DNA of 64,000 nucleotides from Pseudogymnoascus verrucosus (taxonomy: Eukaryota): NCBI GenBank assembly GCA_001662655.1, contig KV460218.1; one strand, 5' to 3'. Made by a program: the position numbers and the translations under genes. A model generated the notes under the pieces. That model worked only from the letters and a program-made list of their open reading frames with translations. It did not search any database and had not been told where the DNA came from. This document shows positions 663 to 62,300 of this stretch, piece by piece (positions within the stretch are counted from its first letter, which is position 1; each line of letters opens with the position of its first letter).

Positions 663-2776
663 GCCTTCTCCCACTCTCCCTTTCCCTCCTCCCCTCACCC
701 ACTCACCCAACTCGCGCACTCACCGAACTCGCGCACTCACCCAACTCACCCCTCCATCTTACGCACAGTACCAAAAAAACGACCTATCTCACACCCCCTC
801 ACCTCCCTCGCCACAATGTCATGACACCTGTCTCACCAACCTCATCTGATCTTAGCCATGTCTCAGACCGCCCTTACTCGCCAAAGTACGCCTCACTTCC
901 ATACATACCTACTTCCATACATCCATACATACACACTTCCACCCACCTACATACACTACCACCCGCCCCGTCCGCTTCGGGAAGAGGACCAAGACCTTCA
1001 AGGAGAGACGAAGCCTCGGCGTAGACCAAGAAGAAGCGTGTATCCCGCCCCTATAACCTCTCTAGGCATACGTGCGTCGCTCGATATGGTGTTAGACTAC
1101 GAAAGGGCGGCACGATGGGCTGGATTGGGGGTGATGGCGGGATAGGTGGTCGATCCCATCCGCGGCGGCGGCGGTGGTGGTGGTGGATGCGGTGGATTGG
1201 GGGGGTCCGCTCGCTGCTGGTGCTGGTGCTACTGCTGTATCCCTGAGAGGCGTAGAATGGGGTTGTACTTCTGGCGCGGCGCTGTTGTGCTTCCGTAGCT
1301 GCCGGTGTTGATGCTACTGACGCCTACTAACACTGTATTACCATACCAACACCACTGATGCTGCTTGCTACCATTACCAACAACGCACAGAGACCCTTCC
1401 TTCCTTCCCCACGGATCCCGTTCCCGCATCGCTTACACCAGACGACCACCACGTACCACCAACCAACCGTCCTCCCAACCCACGAATGCATGCAAGAAGC
1501 CACCCACCACCCACACCCACCCAGCCAGACAACCAGATCGGGACCGCGGATAAGTAGTTGTTGCATACGCCCGCCGCGCTATGGACTCGTTAGCGCCAGG
1601 GGGGGAGATGCATAACTCCTCCCGTGTGGATGCACTATTTTAGTGTTGCTTTTTTTTGCGGGAGGAGAGAGAAGAGAAGAAGGTGAGAAGTGATGGATTG
1701 GCGGGTATGGGGGGTTGGAGTCCGCGGAGGAGGGATGGGGGGGAGGGGGGTTATGCGGTATGATGGGGGTTATGTGATATGGGGGATAGGTTACGTGGAC
1801 TGGACTGGATTGGTGATACTATGACGGTGCGTGCGTGCTGGAATGGATGGAATGGATGGGCGGCTGTAACGGGGGTGTAACTTCTGTCATTAAAGGGCGG
1901 GTTGGTGATGTTACGAGTTTGTTATATGTAGTATTTAGTTTAGTTGTTGGTGGTAGGTAGGTAAAGGGCGTATGTAGACCACGGTATCTTTAGAGAAAAT
2001 CAATAGCTAAATACGCTCAACTAGTGATTACGAATACATGCGTCTACCCGTCCGTCTGCTCCTGTAGCATAAACAAAAAAGCCCACCTGGTGGTGCTTAC
2101 TGCTTCCTGCTGGGACAGAGCAGAAGGGGGACAACAGTGTCTGTTATACCATCTAGGTAGACGGTATGTACATTTAGCAAAACTCTGGTAGGCGAAAGGA
2201 GCGAATCCTGACTAAGAATACATGTGGATACCCGCCGGATGATGACATGCTCCGCGCAAAGCACACCTGGTGCTGGGACGACAGAGAGGGATAGGGAGGG
2301 ACAGCAGGGTGTCTGTTGTGCTTTTTGCTTGGTTTCTTGGTTGCTTGGTTGCTTGGTTGCTACTAAACGGTGGTCTAGTGGGGAGTAGAGGCTGGGTACG
2401 TATGTATCTTTAGAGTGATTTGTGTGGATGGATGGGGGGAGGAGTGATTAGGGGTACATGTGTGTACCCGGGTTGGTTTTTTGTGATATGGAGACAGATG
2501 GACAGCATACATATCGCATCGGCTGGGTGTATGTCACAGTTGGGACGGTATAGAGGGACAGGTAGAGGTACATCTCGGTTGTCAGAGGGGTGTGTTTACT
2601 AGAGAGAGTAGAGTTAGATTTGTAGGGAGTTGTAGGCAATTAGTAGGGAATTAGAGGTTTTGTCTGTCTCCATCTACAGTCAATTCCCTTAATGCACACT
2701 TATGCATGTACTGGTACTTCTCCCACTCTAACCTACAGGGTTGCTTCCTCCCATTTTCTTACTTCCTCCCATTTTC

Positions 2777-2880
2777 TACTACTACACTACTAGCTACTAC
2801 TATACTACTACCAGCTACTATACTCCTACTACTACTATACTACTGGCTAGCACTACTACTAATTCCTAGCTACTATACTA
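2777..2880. repeat. Degenerate (CTA/TAC)n microsatellite
   Basis: ctactacactactagctactactatactacta... visible directly. Confidence 0.7.
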
Positions 2881-3235
2881 ATTAATTCCCAGGACAGGCA
2901 CAGGCACAATCACAAGCACAGGGCAATAAATAACACAATCTGAATAATAATCTTAGCTCCATTCATATCCAATCCATATCCATCCCTCCTTCGCCCACTC
3001 CCACTCCCACCACACATCCAACCCCCTGCCCCCCTACACCCACCCCCCTGTCACCCCTTCCACCCCTGCCATCCCCCTTCCCACTGCACTCCACATCCAC
3101 ACCCTTCACACCCCTTCCCGCCCGTGTCACACCCATCTTTCTTATCCTGCCCTCCCCTTCTTTTTCGTGACTGACATTGTCTGAGAGCCAATTTTACCTA
3201 TCCCCAAACACCCATATCCAGAACATTTTCACTTT

Positions 3236-3258
3236 ACACACACACACACACACACACA
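3236..3258. repeat. (AC)n microsatellite
   Basis: Run of ACACAC... upstream of the kinesin gene. Confidence 0.85.
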
Positions 3259-20819: not shown

Positions 20820-21766
20820 GTTTAATTGCCGCGTTGGTTTGGCTTCTATCACTTAATGACCAGAGGATCGTAATCTCAACAATATTATTATATCAAATAC
20901 ATGGACTTCAAATGTTTATACACGCCGTCGTATCCAACCCCCCGTCAACCCCAACGCCCCTTGAAGCGCCATGCTTATCTTCACAGCGCTGAACGCGCAC
21001 TCACCACTGACGCCAGCATCAATGGGACATCAAGTCGCAATCAACCCTCCCATATTCGCAATCCGCTGCGACCTTCACTGTCTCGTGTTTCGATAAATCG
21101 GGTTATCAATGTAAGAGTTGTTGGAAAATTTGGCTATCACGCCAGTGTGGATCATCCAAGTGCTTGGTCCCGCGTTGGCGGACTTGGACTCCTATCTTAG
21201 GCGCGGAGTTGAAGTCCATTAGCGTGGAAAGTTTAAAACTCCCCCCATGTTAAACCCCGAGTTATCGAGTTAATTGGACTTGGCGGAAACCTTGTCAGTA
21301 AGTGAACCCTAGAGGTTTCTCCACAGTGTTTGTTGAGCACGTTTTTGAGATCATCATGTAGGGCTCAGTGCTTCGTGTGCCGGCGTCCGGCCATGAAAAC
21401 CCCACGAGTTCACATGTTAACCCCAACATCACTCGGCCAGAGTCCAGGTATAATAACTTTGAGCTAATAGTATTTCTCTCTCACACTCTATTTTTGAGTA
21501 ATTGATAGAATAATTATATCCTCTAGTAATTAAAAGTATTTTTCCATTACAATTCTTGTAATTACTGTAGTAATATCAAGGGACTATTCACTCGGACTCT
21601 TTTATAACTAGGCCCCTCTTTTATTCCAATGCGATATATTTTAGAAAATTATTTAAATTCTAAAATATTTTCATTCATAGCGGTCGTATGCTCCCATAAT
21701 ATGTACTCATAGAACAGCCTCTATTGCGAATCATAGTCCAAACAAGCATCCCCCTATAAGATCTTA

Positions 21767-50061: not shown

Positions 50062-51921
50062 CTACAATAACGCGAGCATCTCTTCCATCCTCAAAATTGA
50101 ATCGTCAAGATCTCGGCCTACCTCTACCGCCTTCACCTTAACACCGTCGAAGTCCTTAATCTCGAAAGTCTTATTCCGCTGCTCCATTTCCGTTTCCAAC
50201 CGGACTAACAAATGGTGTAGCTCACGGGTTTTTTCAATCGCAGTTTCTGTCTTTCGTCTTGCATTGATCCTAGCCTTTCTGAGAGGCTCATTTTTGTTGT
50301 CGACTTGGGTGTTACGTTTCGTAGTTGAGTCTGAGTCTGTAGAACTGCATGTGTCACTATCACTTTCTGGGGTGATATTCCCGCAGCCTACGCATTTTCC
50401 CATCTTGTAAAGCTGGTCATCCTTTTGTAATTTGGCTTCATCAGGCTCCTCGTGAGGCATCTTTTGTTCTTTAGATCGGGTTGGTTGCTCTCCGTCTGGT
50501 TGGCTATACCTTTTATCGTGCTCTTTTTGTGCCTCGCGAAATAGGCACACAAGATCTATGTTCGAAAGCCTCATAAACTCCGACTTAGGGATCTTTTGAT
50601 AAGGCATGATCCGTGCTATGCGAAGCAGCTCTGTTTGGTCTAATTGGGAAAGCTCTTCAATAGGCATACTAAGAGGTACGCATTGTGAAAGTTCGATGGG
50701 TGGTACAGGAAGCCTCATGAAAGATTCTCTCCGTGCTATATCGAGCAACTTCTCAAGGTTGGGTGGCTCGTAGGGCTTGAAAACATCGTCTCGTGCTATA
50801 TCAACAATTTCTACGAGGTCCGACTTTTTAAGTTTCTCGAGGTTCTCGTCTGTCTCGCACCTCGCTTGGTACACGAGATTTATATTAAGACGTACCTTGT
50901 CCTTTAAGGCGCGTGTATCAAGGAAGCTCTCCTTCGTATCGTATATTCCAGACTTCTCGGTTTTAGTATGCTGGTCCATCGTTCCCTTCTTAGTTTTGGC
51001 TCCCCCCTCAACGAAGTTTGTCGTCGTTGTTTCCACCTGCCCTTCAACTTTATCAAGCCAATCATCAGACTCGAGTTCTATCTTGCCAGGCATCTCCTTG
51101 AGTCCCTTTAACTCGAGTTCTGTCTTAGAAGTCTGAGAAGGCAGCTTATGAAACGTATCTTCAGGCTTGCAAACTTGATCGTCCTCTTGTAGTTTAGCCT
51201 CGTGCACGTTATTAGCCTTCTCTCTTTCCACATGACGTGAGACTTGATCCCTAGAATCGGCTACCTTATACTTCTTCAAGTCCTCCTTTCGTGCCTCGCG
51301 AAGTAGGTCCACGAGATCCGAGTTGGGAACCTTCACAAACACTGATTTAGGGATCCTATAGAAAGGAGTGGCTCGTGCTACGCGAAGCAACTCCATAAGG
51401 CCCAGTTTGGAAAGTTTCTCAAAGGGCATATTCTGTGCCTTAACAGACGGGGTAGTAAAGGATTTACCCCGTACTATGTCGAGTTCCTCCGCGAGACTTG
51501 GCCTCGGGGGCTCCAAAGCCTCTTCTCGTACTATGTCAAGAAGCTCTATAAGGTCTGACTTCATAAGTTTCTCTAGAGACTCGTTTGATGCGGAGCTAAG
51601 TCGATTTTTGGCACCTCTGTACAATCGTCGGCTTTCTTTCTTCTCAGCTTCGGTCTCGGAGTTCCACTTCTCAATTATGTCAACCTCCCACTTTTCGGCC
51701 TCAGTCCTTTCGTCAACCTCCCACGTCTCGGCCTCGGTCCTTTGATCGGCCTTCGACTTCTCTACGTTACTAGGAGACTGGTCCATAGTCCCATAGGCAT
51801 TCTCTTGATTCTGGATTTCTGAGTATCTGGGTAGTTGCTCGTCATCTGTATAAGGTTGCTCTAGAAGCGCTGCTGTCTCCTCTTGGCGTCTAAAGTACGC
51901 TCTCCAGTTGCGTTTTGCCAT
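50062..51921 (-). CDS. Orphan charged helical protein with internal duplication and C-terminal GKCxxC domain (paralog A)
   Basis: Intronless ORF, 619 aa from ATG 51921; no recognised family. Confidence 0.75.
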   Translation of the reverse strand: MAKRNWRAYFRRQEETAALLEQPYTDDEQLPRYSEIQNQENAYGTMDQSPSNVEKSKADQRTEAETWEVDERTEAEKWEVDIIEKWNSETEAEKKESRRLYRGAKNRLSSASNESLEKLMKSDLIELLDIVREEALEPPRPSLAEELDIVRGKSFTTPSVKAQNMPFEKLSKLGLMELLRVARATPFYRIPKSVFVKVPNSDLVDLLREARKEDLKKYKVADSRDQVSRHVEREKANNVHEAKLQEDDQVCKPEDTFHKLPSQTSKTELELKGLKEMPGKIELESDDWLDKVEGQVETTTTNFVEGGAKTKKGTMDQHTKTEKSGIYDTKESFLDTRALKDKVRLNINLVYQARCETDENLEKLKKSDLVEIVDIARDDVFKPYEPPNLEKLLDIARRESFMRLPVPPIELSQCVPLSMPIEELSQLDQTELLRIARIMPYQKIPKSEFMRLSNIDLVCLFREAQKEHDKRYSQPDGEQPTRSKEQKMPHEEPDEAKLQKDDQLYKMGKCVGCGNITPESDSDTCSSTDSDSTTKRNTQVDNKNEPLRKARINARRKTETAIEKTRELHHLLVRLETEMEQRNKTFEIKDFDGVKVKAVEVGRDLDDSILRMEEMLALL

Positions 51922-52006
51922 GTTTATAACAGAGTAATTAAGCAAAAACTGCTACTAAGGTGATAATTATTGTGTCTTGTATTTTTGTAAAGGCTGTGGC
52001 TGGTTG

Positions 52007-52260
52007 TGTAGTTTTAGATGCAGGGCAAGGGAAGTGGTGGGAGAGGGGATGAATATATAGGAAACGGCACTAATGAGAATCTAACCTACTCGTACGATGG
52101 ACATCTCTAGCCATGGAGCTACTGGTTCGTCCGCAAATTACTAAAATGGGCTTCGACATAGTGGAAGGCCAGTCACCTCCATCCTGTCCACGGTTTCCTT
52201 CCGCTCAGCGTCCCGGCTAAGAAGCTAATTCTAGAACGTAGTACTCGTGCGGCCCTAAAG
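52007..52260 (-). promoter_or_regulatory. Duplicated upstream module, copy A
   Basis: Colinear similarity blocks to 53474-53770; TATA-like TATATA near 52054. Confidence 0.75.
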
Positions 52261-52394
52261 CCTTAATAGTTACTGTACATAATTAGAGTAATAAGAGTAA
52301 ATGCAATTAAAATAATATAAATAGCTAGTAACAAGTTGTTCATCCTTACATACACGAAAAGCCCTCTTTATTCGCCTGCCCGTCGCTCATCCTC

Positions 52395-53432
52395 CTACCT
52401 TTCTACTAAATGATCAAGTGCTGCACCTATATAATCTGTGAACTCTGTGAGGCCTTGAAAGCCTTTAACCCCTAGAGTGTTATTTCGTTCGACATTACCG
52501 TCTAACGTTAACATCAAGCTATACAGCCCATAAGATCTGTCAACCACAACGCCTATTTCTTGCCTCGCTTTATCCCTAAGCTGCTGTAAATTCTCATATA
52601 CTTCCTCATCCTGGCCAATCTCGGCTGTATTCATCACCTTGTAGAGAGCAGCTGTTAAGTAACTACCTCCTGTTGTTATAGATCTATCTCCTATGCGGAT
52701 ACCACTGCAATTCGCGCACTTCCCTTCTAACGAGGCTGCCTTTATAGCTGCAGTCTGGTCCATGGCTTTTCGAAGTCGCTCGTCGTATCGTTGTTTACTT
52801 TGGTAAATCTTCCTTTCGGTTTTATCCCAGAGATTATCGCTCATTGCCTTATAATTCTCGGCAGCTTCAAGTTTCGACTCGCGGAGGTCATCTTGTATTT
52901 TATGTGCCCCATCTAGTTGCTGAAGAGCACTGTCCCGGTCCCTATAATCCTCATCCCGTTGCTTGCGAGCATCATCTCGGTCCTTGCAAGCATCATCGCA
53001 ATTCTTCGAATACTGATCTCGTTGCTTAAGAGCATCATCTCTTTCCTTGAGAAGCTCCTCTAATTGCCGCTTGTTCTCTTGTCCCACAATACGCAGCTCT
53101 GACCGTTCCAGTTCAGGGCGCCCGTTAATAAACTCACGCAGTGCGCTGTGGAGTTTCTCTCGGGGGCTAGTGTTCGGAACTGCCTTTGAAGGCTCACTAT
53201 GCTTAAGCTTCGACGCTGTCGCTTCAGACTCTCGCTCACCATTATCGGTCTTCGAGTTCCTAACATCAGAATTCGGATTCTGAGTTTCTGAATTCCCAAA
53301 GCACGCCTTCCAGCTGTGCTTCACCACATACCAGACGAGGTGCGAAAGAATTCCTGCTAAAGTGATAATAACTGCGTCTCTAGTGCCATTGTCCATAGAC
53401 AGTACCGTAAAAGCTGCGTATAATTCAACCAT
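52395..53432 (-). CDS. Orphan protein with N-terminal hydrophobic helix, heptad repeats and C-terminal GKCxxC domain (paralog B)
   Basis: Intronless 345-aa ORF; TM-like AVIITLAGILSHLVWYVV; 7-aa repeats. Confidence 0.75.
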   Translation of the reverse strand: MVELYAAFTVLSMDNGTRDAVIITLAGILSHLVWYVVKHSWKACFGNSETQNPNSDVRNSKTDNGERESEATASKLKHSEPSKAVPNTSPREKLHSALREFINGRPELERSELRIVGQENKRQLEELLKERDDALKQRDQYSKNCDDACKDRDDARKQRDEDYRDRDSALQQLDGAHKIQDDLRESKLEAAENYKAMSDNLWDKTERKIYQSKQRYDERLRKAMDQTAAIKAASLEGKCANCSGIRIGDRSITTGGSYLTAALYKVMNTAEIGQDEEVYENLQQLRDKARQEIGVVVDRSYGLYSLMLTLDGNVERNNTLGVKGFQGLTEFTDYIGAALDHLVER

Positions 53433-53473
53433 CTTGCCTGTCGTCTGTCTTCTTAATTTCAGTGACTCTTAGT

Positions 53474-53770
53474 TGTAGTTTTAGATGGCAGATAATAAAA
53501 ATGGTGTGTGGAAGACCGAAGCATATATGGGAGCATACATGGGACATGAGACAGTAGGATGATAATTCCACCTAATCGTACCTTTTTGGCACTTACCTCT
53601 CTGGCTAGGAGCTAAATGCTTCGTCTGGTTAACTAAAATAGGCTTTATATAGTGAAAGGCTAATCATCTCCGTCCCTCACTAACGAAGCTAGTTACTGAC
53701 ATCAGCCCATCTTATAATTCGTTAGTAGCACCTACCTTGGTAACATTTCACTACTCGTCCTGCCTAAAAG
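53474..53770 (-). promoter_or_regulatory. Duplicated upstream module, copy B
   Basis: Colinear similarity blocks to 52007-52260. Confidence 0.75.
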
Positions 53771-54234
53771 TATGGAGAAGAACTGTGCACAGCACATACG
53801 TTCACAGAGACTATGGTTAAAATAAGGATTTATAGGCACTCGGAACTGTAATCAAAAATCCAGTTACTCATAATTAGAACGAGAGAGATAAACTCTATCA
53901 GCTCGAATCGCTAGTATCGATCCTCAGCCAAAGAGATACCTCGTCAGAATCCCAGGCGACGCGAGGACAATATTCACAAACAAGAACGATTTCACAGAGA
54001 AAGATAACTACTTTTGTACAGTACAGTAATATATATTCTCAAACAAGTCCAACCCAATGCTACCTCCTGATATATACCAGATGCAACGCTCGAAGCCAAC
54101 CTACGAAAAATGCTAAATGAAGCTCCCATCCCCCCCTTCCCCCTTCTCAGTTCCTCTACCCTCCCCCTCCAGCCACAGTAACTAATCACCGCCCTCCCAT
54201 CGAGAGACCCTCACACCCATCCCCCTCCCTTCAG

Positions 54235-55434
54235 CTACTCACCCCCATACTCCTCATCATCGTCCTCCTCCACCCCCACAACCGCCAACTCCGTCTCAAC
54301 CAACGCCCTAAACTCCGCCCTCCCCATCCCCGCCGCCCGTGCCAGACGATACAAACTCTTCACACTAGCCCCGATATGCTGCCTCACAGCAGTATCATGT
54401 CTCCCCTCTCTCTCCACCTTATCCTCTAACACCTCCACCGCCGCAGACCGTCCACTCGTACTCGATTCCGCCGAGCGCGGCCGCGGCTGCTCAAGCTGCG
54501 CGTCTCTCTCTCTCCCTGCCCGTTCTACTTCCGTAATACCATTCCCGTTCCCGTTGCTATGCACCGCAGGACTCACAAACTCCCGCTCATGCTGTGCACC
54601 AAGACTCGATTCCACTTCCCCATTTGCGCCCGCCTCGTCGGGATCATGTGCGTCCAGCGCGGGCTGCACATCAGCGTACTGTGCGAAGTATGCGTCCTCG
54701 GCTCCACCGTCAACTTGGGTATTCCCACTCACGGGTGCCTGGCGCACGCTCGCAGGCGCAGGAGATCTGTTATCCGGCCCTGGTGTCGCAGCGGGCGTAG
54801 CGTCATATTGAGCCCAATACGCCGCATCATCATCTTCATCGCCATCATCCTGTACCGGCTCCGCAACCGTAGGAATCACCACCGCCGCATCCCCATTCGT
54901 CTTCCCTGCCTTAAACGCCTGTTCTGCCGCCTCTAGGCTTTCAAACCACTCACCCTCACTCTCCCCCTCATTTTTCAGCACCCCCACCTCCCCAATCCTC
55001 CACCCATCCACCGGCCCCTCACTATCCCCAACACAATACACACACCTAACCCACAACCCGACCCCCCCAATCTCAATCCTCGCCCACATCGTCTCCGCAT
55101 CCACCCTCCTATACCTAACCCCCACCTCCCTCCCATCCTCCCAATCAACATCGACCTCCACCTCCCCGCTCACAGGGTGCGGCTCGAACTTCTCCCCATG
55201 CGCGAGCGCAATCAACTTCTCCCCCGTGTCGTCGCTGGCGTAAGTGAGGAGGGGGAGCCAGGGGGTGGTGGGCGAGGCGAGGAGCTTGACGCGTTGCCGG
55301 AGGATGGGGGAGAGGTGCGGGAGGAGAGGGGAGGGGGCGTGGGGGAGGGAGCCGGTGGGGAGGGCGGTGAGGAGGGGTTGGAGGAGGGTGGGGGGAGAGG
55401 GGGGGGAGAGGGGGAGGGGGATTGCTGATGGCAT
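54235..55434 (-). CDS. Conserved-looking fungal hypothetical protein
   Basis: 399-aa ORF with LSPILRQRVKLL, EPHPVSGEVE, YWAQYD, YFAQYADVQPALD, HIGASVKSLYRLAR. Confidence 0.8.
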   Translation of the reverse strand: MPSAIPLPLSPPSPPTLLQPLLTALPTGSLPHAPSPLLPHLSPILRQRVKLLASPTTPWLPLLTYASDDTGEKLIALAHGEKFEPHPVSGEVEVDVDWEDGREVGVRYRRVDAETMWARIEIGGVGLWVRCVYCVGDSEGPVDGWRIGEVGVLKNEGESEGEWFESLEAAEQAFKAGKTNGDAAVVIPTVAEPVQDDGDEDDDAAYWAQYDATPAATPGPDNRSPAPASVRQAPVSGNTQVDGGAEDAYFAQYADVQPALDAHDPDEAGANGEVESSLGAQHEREFVSPAVHSNGNGNGITEVERAGRERDAQLEQPRPRSAESSTSGRSAAVEVLEDKVEREGRHDTAVRQHIGASVKSLYRLARAAGMGRAEFRALVETELAVVGVEEDDDEEYGGE

Positions 55435-60421: not shown

Positions 60422-62174
60422 TACGTCGTTGATATCGTGAAGTTCGTAGGATAGCTTGGTATGAAATGGAAAAGAAGTTTTGTTTTGGGGGTATTTAGTT
60501 GTTTAATAAAGGAAGAAAGATGAGAGAGGAGGAAGAGGAGAGTAGTAGTAGATTTCGTTCGGGAGAAGTACGGTTTCACTCAATGGGTTAGAAGAGGGGG
60601 AGGGGTTGAGGTAGAGAAGGGGGGGGGGGCGATATAGGTGGATAGGTGGGTATGTGTGTTGGAGGAGGTTAGAGGTGGTTAGAGGTTTGGTTTGTACCGC
60701 ATTGTACGTTAAAGGCGGGGTCATATGAGCCATCTGAGCAGGAGCTTCCCCTTAGTCCGGTGGTCGACAAAGTACCGATGACATCTGTAGACTACAGGTG
60801 CTGTAGAGGCATTCGGTCTACCGGTATAAATGTCGCCGGGTATGAACCCCTCTATAGAGACGATGGAGACTAAACTCTCTAAGAGCGAGAATATTTGATT
60901 CCGTCTAATTCCTAGTATAGAATCTCCATATAAATTCGGGTTATTTGCGACGAGCGTACACCTAGACGTACGATAATAATAAATTGTCTCCATTGACACT
61001 CCTACAGGTTCTCCTACAGGTACAAGTTTCATCGGTCGGCGTCTATTATCGGATGCGGGCTATGGTCGGGTGTACAATTAGAAATGCTCTGCGACCCCTC
61101 TTTCCGCATCCGTGAAACAGACAAGAAGTTACTGGTTACTGGTTACTGGTTACTGCAGTTTACAAGGTTGACTACTAACTACTTACCCCAGACCCCGTTG
61201 GTCCTCGGCATTTATGGATGGCATTCATTGGTTCGGGATCGAGCTGCAGCAGTAAGCAGGATACAGCGGCGACAATTCCCATGCGGAGTATATTCATACG
61301 TACGTATGAATATTGAGGGGTGGTATGGAGTGTAGATGGGGTCTATATGGGGTTGTATATGGGAGTGTATATGGAGTGTTACGGGCTAAGCTTAGTAGCT
61401 AGTAGCTAGTAGCTAGTAAGGTCGATGAGTTCGATAGTACTGCATGTCACTGTATGGTATGTACATACAACGAACGATTCGGGATCTGAGTGTCATCGCT
61501 GCAACCAACGCGGTAACCAACGCGGCAAGGGTCCACGGAGGGAAGGAGCGATGCGGTACGATTCGGTACGAGTCGGCCAGGGCGAGAGAGAGAGACAGAC
61601 AAGTGCGAGTCGCACTGGATTGTATTATTGTATTATTGTAGTGCTTTGTATTGTACTTCTATCTCGAGTATACTGCAGCATTACACCTACGATAATACGG
61701 CAAGTTGGGGATAAATGGGAAAACTATATGTCCGCTCAAGGGCCGAGCTAGGAGTAGGAAAACACAGCCAAGACGGTTGATATAGGCGTTCTCTACTACA
61801 GTATGTTCTGTTTATATCCGTTCTATAGGTCTATAGGTCTATAGGTTCTATAAGTTCTATATATACTCCTACGAGTTTCATGAGTATACTATACATACAC
61901 TCCTTCCAAACTATAGCATGTCTAGTATTACACACCGTATACACCGCACACTCCTAACAGACCGCTGATTACTATACATACGTTTGCATGAACAGGTGCG
62001 GGTCAGATGGATCCAATATCAATGGGTCTGGCTCGATGGGGCTCCGACTCCAAGACTCCAATACATCATGAACTTGCTTTGTAACCCACTCTACTAGTAT
62101 CAGCCACGTGCGAGTCGCACTTGCACTTGATAGAGAGGAGGAGGAGGGAGTCCGATATCAAGAGTCAATTAATG

Positions 62175-62300
62175 GTCACGTGTATGTTTACACTTTTATC
62201 ACGTGAATTTCGATCGAGTTGATCACGTGTATTTATGTCATAATTATCACGTGAATTTTAATTAAGTTTATCACGTGCCTTGTATCAGTCTAATCACGTG
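62175..62300. promoter_or_regulatory. Phased array of six RTCACGTG (E-box/CDEI-like) sites
   Basis: CACGTG at 62177, 62200, 62224, 62248, 62272, 62295. Confidence 0.8.

What the first reader, a model, noticed from the sequence alone, without database searches (positions are those of the whole stretch)
52007..53770. Upstream regions of the two orphans are better conserved than their coding 5' ends, with directional transitions
Seen: colinear blocks. TGTAGTTTTAGATG is identical (52007 vs 53474); a TATA-like box follows in both; ATGAGAATCTAACCTACTCGTAC vs ATGATAATTCCACCTAATCGTAC (18/23); GGAGCTA...TTCGTC; ACTAAAATGGGCTTCGACATAGTGGAAGGCCAGTCACCTCCATCC vs ACTAAAATAGGCTTTATATAGTGAAAGGCTAATCATCTCCGTCC; CTAA(C)GAAGCTA; TACTCGT...CCTAAA. 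In the longest block all substitutions are transitions and nearly all are C>T or G>A in copy B. The adjacent coding 5' halves show no visible similarity. Inference: selection for co-regulation or a reusable promoter cassette, with RIP-like mutation possibly speeding divergence.
Basis: partly seen in the sequence, partly recalled or inferred. Interest (0 to 1): 0.75.

Follow-up and report, generated by a model that had tools for sequence, protein, structure and literature searches.

The report
Shared promoter of old tandem paralogs
Two neighbouring fungal genes that looked unrelated are old copies of one gene, so their look-alike upstream DNA is the promoter that was copied with them; one copy later lost its membrane anchor, whose decayed code still lies in front of it, and this is an ordinary duplication in an uncharacterised gene family.

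Summary
The upstream similarity is real (score 113 against shuffles 29±4), but the two ORFs are not unrelated orphans. A (50062-51921, -) and B (52395-53432, -) are head-to-tail paralogs of a family whose named members are all Pseudogymnoascus hypothetical proteins (profile match 99.1%, E 1e-18). A third, truncated copy on contig C17 carries the same upstream module; no family-free copy was found. Homology does not stop at the start codons: A's 5' leader is a decayed copy of B's transmembrane codons 18-35 (36/54 bases), and A's first ten codons match B's 36-45 (21/30). So A probably arose from a B-like gene, kept the promoter and lost the anchor. The upstream blocks exceed synonymous-level identity (about 40%), which fits cis-regulatory constraint; 5' gene conversion is the main rival. 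The directional transitions hold only in the one block chosen (7 of 8, p=0.07); over eight blocks they are 16 in A against 14 in B, without clear CpA bias. Start sites, expression and protein function are unshown. Ordinary kind of event, uncharacterised family.

The parts
50062..51921 (-). ORF A, 619 aa, no hydrophobic segment; derived paralog with an internally duplicated helical domain and the shared C-terminal helical domain
   Evidence: highest 19-residue hydropathy 0.73
50505..51587 (-). Internal duplication in A (50505-50852 against about 51267-51587, 72% identical in DNA); absent from most relatives
51892..51921 (-). First ten codons of A (MAKRNWRAYF), homologous to B codons 36-45 (VVKHSWKACF); A's ATG stands where B has GTG
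   Evidence: 21/30 bases, all 9 differences transitions; protein alignment A4
51926..51979 (-). Decayed copy of B's transmembrane codons 18-35 in A's 5' leader (reads QDTIIITLVAVFA*LLCY against RDAVIITLAGILSHLVWY), out of frame with A by a 4-base insertion
   Evidence: 36/54 gap-free, shuffles maximum 30
52007..52020 (-). CATCTAAAACTACA, copy A; candidate transcription-start region (inferred from its place 32 bases past the TATA-like box)
   Evidence: 14/14 with B; copy C differs at 2 places; no RNA evidence
52053..52059 (-). TATA-like box, copy A
   Evidence: sequence; TATA consensus recalled, not tested
52073..52184 (-). Upstream conserved blocks, copy A (TCGTAC, GGAGCT, TTCGTC, ACTAAAAT...CTCCATCC)
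   Evidence: best window score 88 against null 27
52217..52260 (-). Two weak distal matches, copy A; not significant alone
52395..53432 (-). ORF B, 345 aa: N-terminal hydrophobic helix (about residues 19-37), long coiled coil with variable 7-residue repeats, GKCANC, C-terminal helical domain; the ancestral-type form
   Evidence: (hydropathy 1.82)
53298..53381 (-). B codons 18-45, the segment that matches A's leader and start
53474..53487 (-). CATCTAAAACTACA, copy B
53522..53529 (-). TATA-like box, copy B (CATATATG, imperfect)
   Evidence: sequence
53559..53675 (-). Upstream conserved blocks, copy B
53680..53770 (-). Two weak distal matches, copy B

Best explanation
The module is the core promoter, upstream sites and 5' leader of one ancestral gene, copied with it. 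Step 1 (shown): a B-like gene, with an N-terminal membrane helix, a coiled coil and a C-terminal helical domain, was duplicated head to tail with about 300 bases of upstream DNA; a separate dispersed copy C went to contig C17. Step 2 (shown in sequence; the order is inferred from C and the distant relative P0033 both having the helix): copy A lost about 64 bases around the old start codon, the membrane-helix codons decayed into its leader, and translation now starts at the codon that is GTG in B, giving a soluble protein. Step 3 (inferred): the proteins then evolved fast (dN about 0.66, dS about 1.3 in the C-terminal tail) while purifying selection kept the TATA box, the start region and a few factor-binding blocks, so both genes probably still answer to the same cue. 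Step 4 (inferred, weak): B anchors a coiled-coil rod in a membrane and A is its unanchored counterpart. RIP is not needed, though it may have touched the locus long ago.
For: Paralogy: hhalign 99.1%, E 1.1e-18, 279 columns; BLASTP 29/110, E 5e-6; A-family P0021 hits B at E 3.6e-6 in the genome; P0033 hits both B and A. Module tied to the family: copy C precedes a 165-aa B-like ORF; pattern searches gave only family copies above control level. Continuity from promoter into coding DNA. Constraint: promoter score 100 was reached by 0 of 300 simulations at 42% identity and 6 of 300 at 49%; 36/44 in the long block has p 4e-8 at 41% and 2e-3 at 60% identity (block chosen after the fact). The upstream DNA is also kept in distant B relatives, read from their over-long gene models: P0003 and P0004 give MLRSSTRHLY..., B's upstream frame MLRSSTHHFY... 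(13/21 and 14/20 by my count); P0009 (43% identical protein) keeps KHLAP, KVRL and PYML. A and B are adjacent on single contigs of 2 of 4 runs laid, and the segment with B's upstream differs by 2.8% where A's coding part differs by 7-8% (X3, X7). N. crassa orphan paralogs are often old head-to-tail pairs (PMC2684829, passages).
Against: No transcript, start-site or expression data. The promoter as a whole is only modestly better kept than the C-terminal coding DNA (simulated 55% identity reaches its score in 39% of runs; coding tail 49-52%) and no better than the 5' coding tract (68%). A's non-coding relic is better kept than neutral drift predicts (36/54 against 49% expected, p=0.007) and third positions of the 5' tract match more than those of the tail (19/28 against 29/70, p=0.025), which favours a younger 5' tract. 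In run X7 the segment holding A's upstream differs by 7.1%, as much as A's coding part (it also holds A's variable 5' end). dS rests on 46 sites and is near saturation. Protein models are poor (pLDDT 50 and 54).
Confidence: 0.7

Rival explanations
1. The 5' tract (promoter, leader and first codons) is younger than the A/B split: gene conversion or unequal crossing-over between the tandem copies re-copied it after the coding bodies had diverged, so its likeness reflects age more than selection.
For: Third-position identity 19/28 in the 5' tract against 29/70 in the C-terminal tail (p=0.025); non-coding relic 36/54; A is as close to B as C is in the relic (36 against 37 of 54) and in the promoter alignment (171/280 against 169/288), though C's protein is far closer to B; likeness drops to background after about B codon 45.
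Against: Small counts, tests chosen after the fact; identity is patchy, with large indels, unlike one recent tract; all three pairwise dS values are alike (1.1-1.3), which fits three copies of similar age with B the slowest; conservation in distant B relatives is not explained by A-B conversion; leaders can be under constraint.
Confidence: 0.17
2. RIP mutated copy B directionally and drove the divergence of the duplicates.
For: 7 of 8 transitions in the longest block are C>T or G>A in B, 3 at CpA/TpG; 30 of 46 differences are transitions; a RID-like methyltransferase with the EQT triad is in G000 (C43; triad as in PMC6709928, passage); composite RIP index +0.73 and +0.29 upstream of A and B and +0.08 in A's ORF, against -0.15 to -1.02 in 12 other ORFs.
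Against: 16 in A against 14 in B overall; CpA context 11 of 30 against a background of 42 of 160; in A's internal repeat 13 of 56 against 66 of 317; B has the fewest unique changes in the proximal promoter (11, against 41 and 34); indices are higher in A than in B, and single-copy-looking DNA at 60500-61900 scores as high; both frames are open.
Confidence: 0.05
3. The conserved stretch is kept as coding or RNA: an N-terminal extension, an upstream ORF or a structured RNA.
For: 3 of 8 B relatives (P0003, P0004, P0009) are modelled with an in-frame 30-60 residue extension over this DNA, with frame-keeping indels between them; B has a 21-codon upstream ORF starting in the TATA-like box.
Against: That ATG is out of frame in B, followed by a stop in C and absent in A; the other 5 relatives start at MVELY; no Rfam match at E up to 1; folding z-scores +1.94 and -0.03.
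Confidence: 0.05
4. The module is a mobile promoter cassette, or a transposon or solo-LTR fragment, put in front of unrelated orphans.
For: A third dispersed copy exists, with an internal tandem duplication of about 61 bases.
Against: All three copies precede homologous ORFs in register, and homology runs on into them; no further copies by patterns or profile; no terminal repeats seen. The genome searches are insensitive to diverged copies (searches did not find each other's copy).
Confidence: 0.03

Closest known systems
Old head-to-tail tandem orphan paralogs of Neurospora crassa (PMC2684829; passages seen)
   Same: Lineage-restricted, unannotated, adjacent head-to-tail pair with low protein identity (there a mean of 36%; here 18-28% in aligned parts) and no clear RIP trace.
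   Different: The passages seen do not treat upstream DNA; here the promoter and a decayed leader are the clearest record of the duplication. Another class of fungi.
Protein subcellular relocalization of duplicate genes by N-terminal change (PMC3879971; abstract and section list seen)
   Same: One duplicate changes its N-terminus and so probably its place in the cell, which may help both copies to be kept.
   Different: Here it is loss of a predicted membrane helix through a start-codon shift, with the relic still readable; localisation is predicted, not shown.
Repeat-induced point mutation (RIP, RID-dependent)
   Same: Linked duplication in an ascomycete with a RID-like gene; transition excess; mild TpA excess.
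   Different: No directional or CpA bias over all blocks; copies now too diverged and short to be substrates (thresholds recalled); frames intact.
Concerted evolution of promoters by ectopic gene conversion (own knowledge)
   Same: A 5' tract that seems less diverged than the gene body.
   Different: Only about 60-68% identity, with many indels; not a recent tract; untested without DNA of relatives.

Membership tests
Tandem whole-gene duplication with retained promoter | The two ORFs are homologous | tested here: met
Tandem whole-gene duplication with retained promoter | Same orientation, adjacent, upstream DNA in register with the coding homology | tested here: met
   adjacency also on single contigs of X3 and X7
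Tandem whole-gene duplication with retained promoter | Upstream blocks kept above the neutral level | tested here: met
   against a synonymous identity of about 40%; the neutral estimate is rough and conversion is not excluded
Tandem whole-gene duplication with retained promoter | The module works as promoter; start sites and expression shared | not testable with these tools
   needs RNA reads or a reporter
Protein subcellular relocalization after duplication | N-terminal targeting segment present in one copy and lost in the other | tested here: met
   hydropathy 1.82 (B), 1.86 (C), 0.73 (A); relic in A's leader
Protein subcellular relocalization after duplication | The two proteins sit in different places | not testable with these tools
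   needs tagged proteins
RIP-mutated duplication | RID-type methyltransferase in the genome | tested here: met
   EQT triad in L032, G000:C43; activity not shown
RIP-mutated duplication | Directional C>T / G>A excess in the affected copy | tested here: not met
   14 in B, 16 in A; B has the fewest unique changes
RIP-mutated duplication | CpA context bias | tested here: inconclusive
   11 of 30 against 42 of 160; 13 of 56 against 66 of 317; the context preferred in this genus is not known to me
RIP-mutated duplication | TpA/ApT above 0.89 and (CpA+TpG)/(ApC+GpT) below 1.03 (thresholds from PMC6759760, passage) | tested here: inconclusive
   passed by A's ORF and both upstream regions, not by B's ORF; also passed by other intergenic DNA
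Transposon or solo-LTR fragment | Many dispersed copies, independent of one gene family | tested here: not met
   three copies, all at family members; searches of limited sensitivity
Transposon or solo-LTR fragment | Terminal repeats, TG...CA ends, target-site duplication | not tested
   none noticed; the repeat listing was crowded by low-complexity DNA; no repeat library at hand
Structured non-coding RNA | Rfam match or fold more stable than shuffles | tested here: not met
   (minus strand folded only)
Allorecognition or poison-antidote gene pair | Known domains (HET, HeLo, NLR), trans-species alleles, killing phenotype | tested here: inconclusive
   no Pfam family in 11 members; the one HeLo-like fusion (P0016) is not mirrored in G000; alleles and phenotype untested

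The most novel reading that the evidence does not exclude
A and B are a functional pair, a membrane-anchored and a soluble form of one fast-evolving coiled-coil protein (an allorecognition or poison-antidote type locus new to fungi), kept co-expressed because their promoter and 5' end are held together by selection or repeated conversion while the bodies diverge.
Probability: 0.05. Interest if true: 0.7.

Novelty: new member of a known kind. Interest (0 to 1): 0.27.

Why it matters
As it stands it is a tidy case of an ordinary process: promoter footprints reveal that two 'orphans' are paralogs, and the decayed leader records how a duplicate lost its membrane anchor. It gives short candidate cis-elements (TCGTAC, GGAGCTA, ACTAAA) and a testable start site in a genus with little promoter data, and unites two annotated 'hypothetical' groups into one family. 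It would matter more if conversion were shown to hold the promoters together, or if the pair proved to act in self-recognition or spore killing.

Tried and rejected
DNA searches of G000 with each module found only themselves: too insensitive to count. TGTAGTTTTAGATG with one mismatch: 11 matches against 25 in the control, 2 exact; the other 9 loci show no extended likeness. CGTAC-CACTT-CTCT pattern: 8 matches against 13 in the control; 3 are B and the two units of C, and 4 of the other 5 loci were tested (the fifth overlaps one of them) and show none. Metagenome scan: 118 stretches, 2 loci, both coiled-coil chance matches at 30%. L021 (C15, E 0.027) is an unrelated low-complexity ORF by its sequence. 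P0037 is judged a repeat match. No RNA holder listed. Run X14 laid only 51 bases; only 40 of 374 difference rows were shown, so no per-base conservation profile could be made. Pfam: sub-threshold hits only. Atlas: no usable hit. Folds: pLDDT 50.5 and 54.5; A's model gave no Foldseek match at E 0.001 and only generic helical bundles at Z up to 10.4; B's model was not searched. No complex prediction was sent. In one search the first-ten-codon comparison was off by one codon and the 'preC' alignment failed; both were dropped, the first redone. Gapped identity figures are inflated (shuffled promoters reach 58%), so scores and gap-free blocks were used. Papers: no hit for five accession or locus names; PMC5750222 passages hold no mention of RIP; seen as listings. 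Supplements were not opened; expression tables there could bear on A's relatives.

Full report
Setting. The window is G000:C13:124001-188000 of a 30.2-Mb genome. The finding lies upstream of two intron-free ORFs on the minus strand: A (50062-51921, 619 aa) and B (52395-53432, 345 aa). B has 8 relatives besides itself among 4023 candidates, 5 of them named, all Pseudogymnoascus hypothetical proteins; A has 12 among 7998, 10 with an organism name, all Pseudogymnoascus. A joint profile found 20 proteins among 1.84 billion representatives; of the 11 new ones I looked up 10, and one carries an organism name, again Pseudogymnoascus. Unnamed members may come from other genera. Labels I use for other genes of the window (kinesin, ALDH and so on) are my reading of their sequences and come from no call.

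The observation. The local alignment scores 113 against 28.7±4.2 for 300 shuffles. In 150-base windows of B against A's locus the signal peaks at 53530-53679 (88, null about 27); the two distal matches are at background. The hand-picked promoter blocks hold 104 identities in 123 bases.

The ORFs are paralogs. Profile comparison gives 99.1%, E 1.1e-18, over 279 columns at 18% identity; BLASTP aligns the C-termini at 29/110; an A-family protein finds B in the genome; each family's profile finds the other ORF; the distant relative P0033 finds both. They share the KxSWxxxF start motif, an LxKxDLxELL helix, GKC and a C-terminal helical hairpin. A third copy C lies at G000:C17, about 387385-387882 (minus): a 165-aa B-like ORF that ends before the C-terminal domain, preceded by the same module with one 61-base unit doubled. 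No copy of the module was found away from the family, with the caveat that plain DNA searches missed even the known copies.

Homology runs through the start codons. A lacks about 64 bases that in B hold the ATG and the first 17 codons. What follows in A's leader is a decayed copy of B's hydrophobic helix: QDTIIITLVAVFA*LLCY against RDAVIITLAGILSHLVWY, 36/54 bases without gaps (shuffles at most 30). After a 4-base insertion A starts with ATG where B has GTG, and 21 of the next 30 bases match. B and C have a hydrophobic window of 1.8, A at most 0.73. C and P0033 both carry the helix, so its loss in A is the likelier direction (inference). The A relatives that have their N-terminus start at the same motif, so the loss is old.

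Is the promoter better kept than the coding DNA? Against silent sites, yes: third positions in the C-terminal domain match at 41-42%, and none of 300 simulations at 42% reached the promoter's score. Against the best coding domain, only modestly: 49-52% identity there, while 6 of 300 simulations at 49% and 39% of those at 55% reach it (no indels simulated, which is conservative). Against the 5' coding tract (68%), no. Support for constraint from outside the pair: over-long gene models of distant B relatives translate the same upstream DNA and match B's upstream frames; in runs X3 and X7 the segment with B's 5' half and upstream differs by 2.8% and A's coding part by 7.8% and 7.1%. Against: the segment with A's upstream differs by 1.6% in X3 but 7.1% in X7 and 1.9% in X2, where A's coding part differs by 1.7%. 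These segments mix coding and non-coding DNA. The 5' tract looks somewhat younger than the tail (19/28 against 29/70 third positions, p=0.025; relic p=0.007), which keeps gene conversion open at about 0.17.

RIP. Over the promoter blocks it is 9 of 12; with the relic and first codons 14 in B and 16 in A, CpA context 11 of 30 against 42 of 160. With C as comparator, B has 11 unique changes in the proximal promoter, A 41 (which may include changes on a B+C stem) and C 34. For RIP: a RID-like gene with the EQT triad (PMC6709928, two passages seen), and composite indices of +0.57 and +0.32 upstream of A and B where 11 of 12 other upstream regions are at or below zero; the twelfth is +0.65. A's ORF passes both N. 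crassa thresholds (PMC6759760, passage), B's does not. An old, mild episode centred on A cannot be excluded; directional RIP of B is not supported.

How it most likely works. A TATA-like box 32-35 bases before CATC(T/C)AAAA in all three copies and short blocks further up form a compact promoter; the TATA consensus and the reading of CATC as start region are recalled, not tested. The module was copied with the gene, and selection kept its blocks while the proteins changed fast (dN 0.66, dS 1.34 over 70 codons). B is predicted as a membrane-anchored coiled-coil rod (helix 107-237) whose repeat number varies between relatives and strains (a 42-base repeat in 3 of 4 runs); A is a soluble form with a doubled helical domain. 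No family or fold could be assigned.

Comparison and verdict. The closest known case is the old head-to-tail orphan pairs of N. crassa, in which no RIP trace was found (PMC2684829, passages), with N-terminal relocalization of a duplicate (PMC3879971, abstract). No paper in the library names the five accessions searched. No earlier finding lies near this place or resembles B. Verdict: real feature, known kind, uncharacterised family; interest 0.27.

Noticed in passing
L027 5386-6151 (G000:C17 about 387385-388150): Third paralog C: 165-aa truncated B-like ORF with the module and a doubled 61-base unit holding TCGTAC and GGAG(T/C)TAAG. A similar short protein is annotated in another strain (P0036), and run X2 holds a C-like piece whose two loose ends match C at about 26 of 30 bases by my count, far less than its A and B match (98% or more).
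   Followed up: partly
P0016; G000:C32 42170-43460 (L043, L045): One strain's gene model fuses a HeLo-like domain (PF17111) to A. In G000 the 90-92% identical HeLo-like gene is on another contig without the module: a rearrangement, misassembly or annotation fusion in that strain.
   Followed up: partly
P0007, P0013, P0003, P0016, P0002, P0027: A- and B-type proteins share contig lengths in three other assemblies (90276, 37056, 44772), so they are probably linked there; locus numbers differ by 6 and by 2 in two of them, so genes may lie between.
   Followed up: no
window 50505-51587: A holds an internal duplication of a roughly 120-residue helical domain (dS 0.95, dN 0.38); most relatives have one copy, and P0018 carries its extra copy at a different place in the alignment.
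   Followed up: partly
window 51690-51811 and 52932-52973: Short tandem repeats inside A's 5' end and B's coiled coil vary in number between runs (33, 42 and 75 bases).
   Followed up: no
window 51737-54300: Runs X3 and X7 show the same count (39 differences, 1 gap) over 52932-54300 but differ sharply over A's start and upstream (20 against 106, over unequal spans): a possible mosaic of haplotypes.
   Followed up: no
window 60500-62300 and 1750-3250: Intergenic stretches with RIP-like dinucleotide indices as high as A's; 62160-62300 holds several copies of (T)CACGTG, an E-box-like motif (recalled).
   Followed up: no
window 53861-53907 and 21458-21504: Weak inverted match (47 bases, 77%, E 0.006); contigs elsewhere in three runs also lay on 53890-53928 with 7 differences in 39. 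Probably chance.
   Followed up: no
window 53591-53596 (minus): A perfect 5' splice-site-like GTAAGT lies in B's module; it is not kept in A or C.
   Followed up: no
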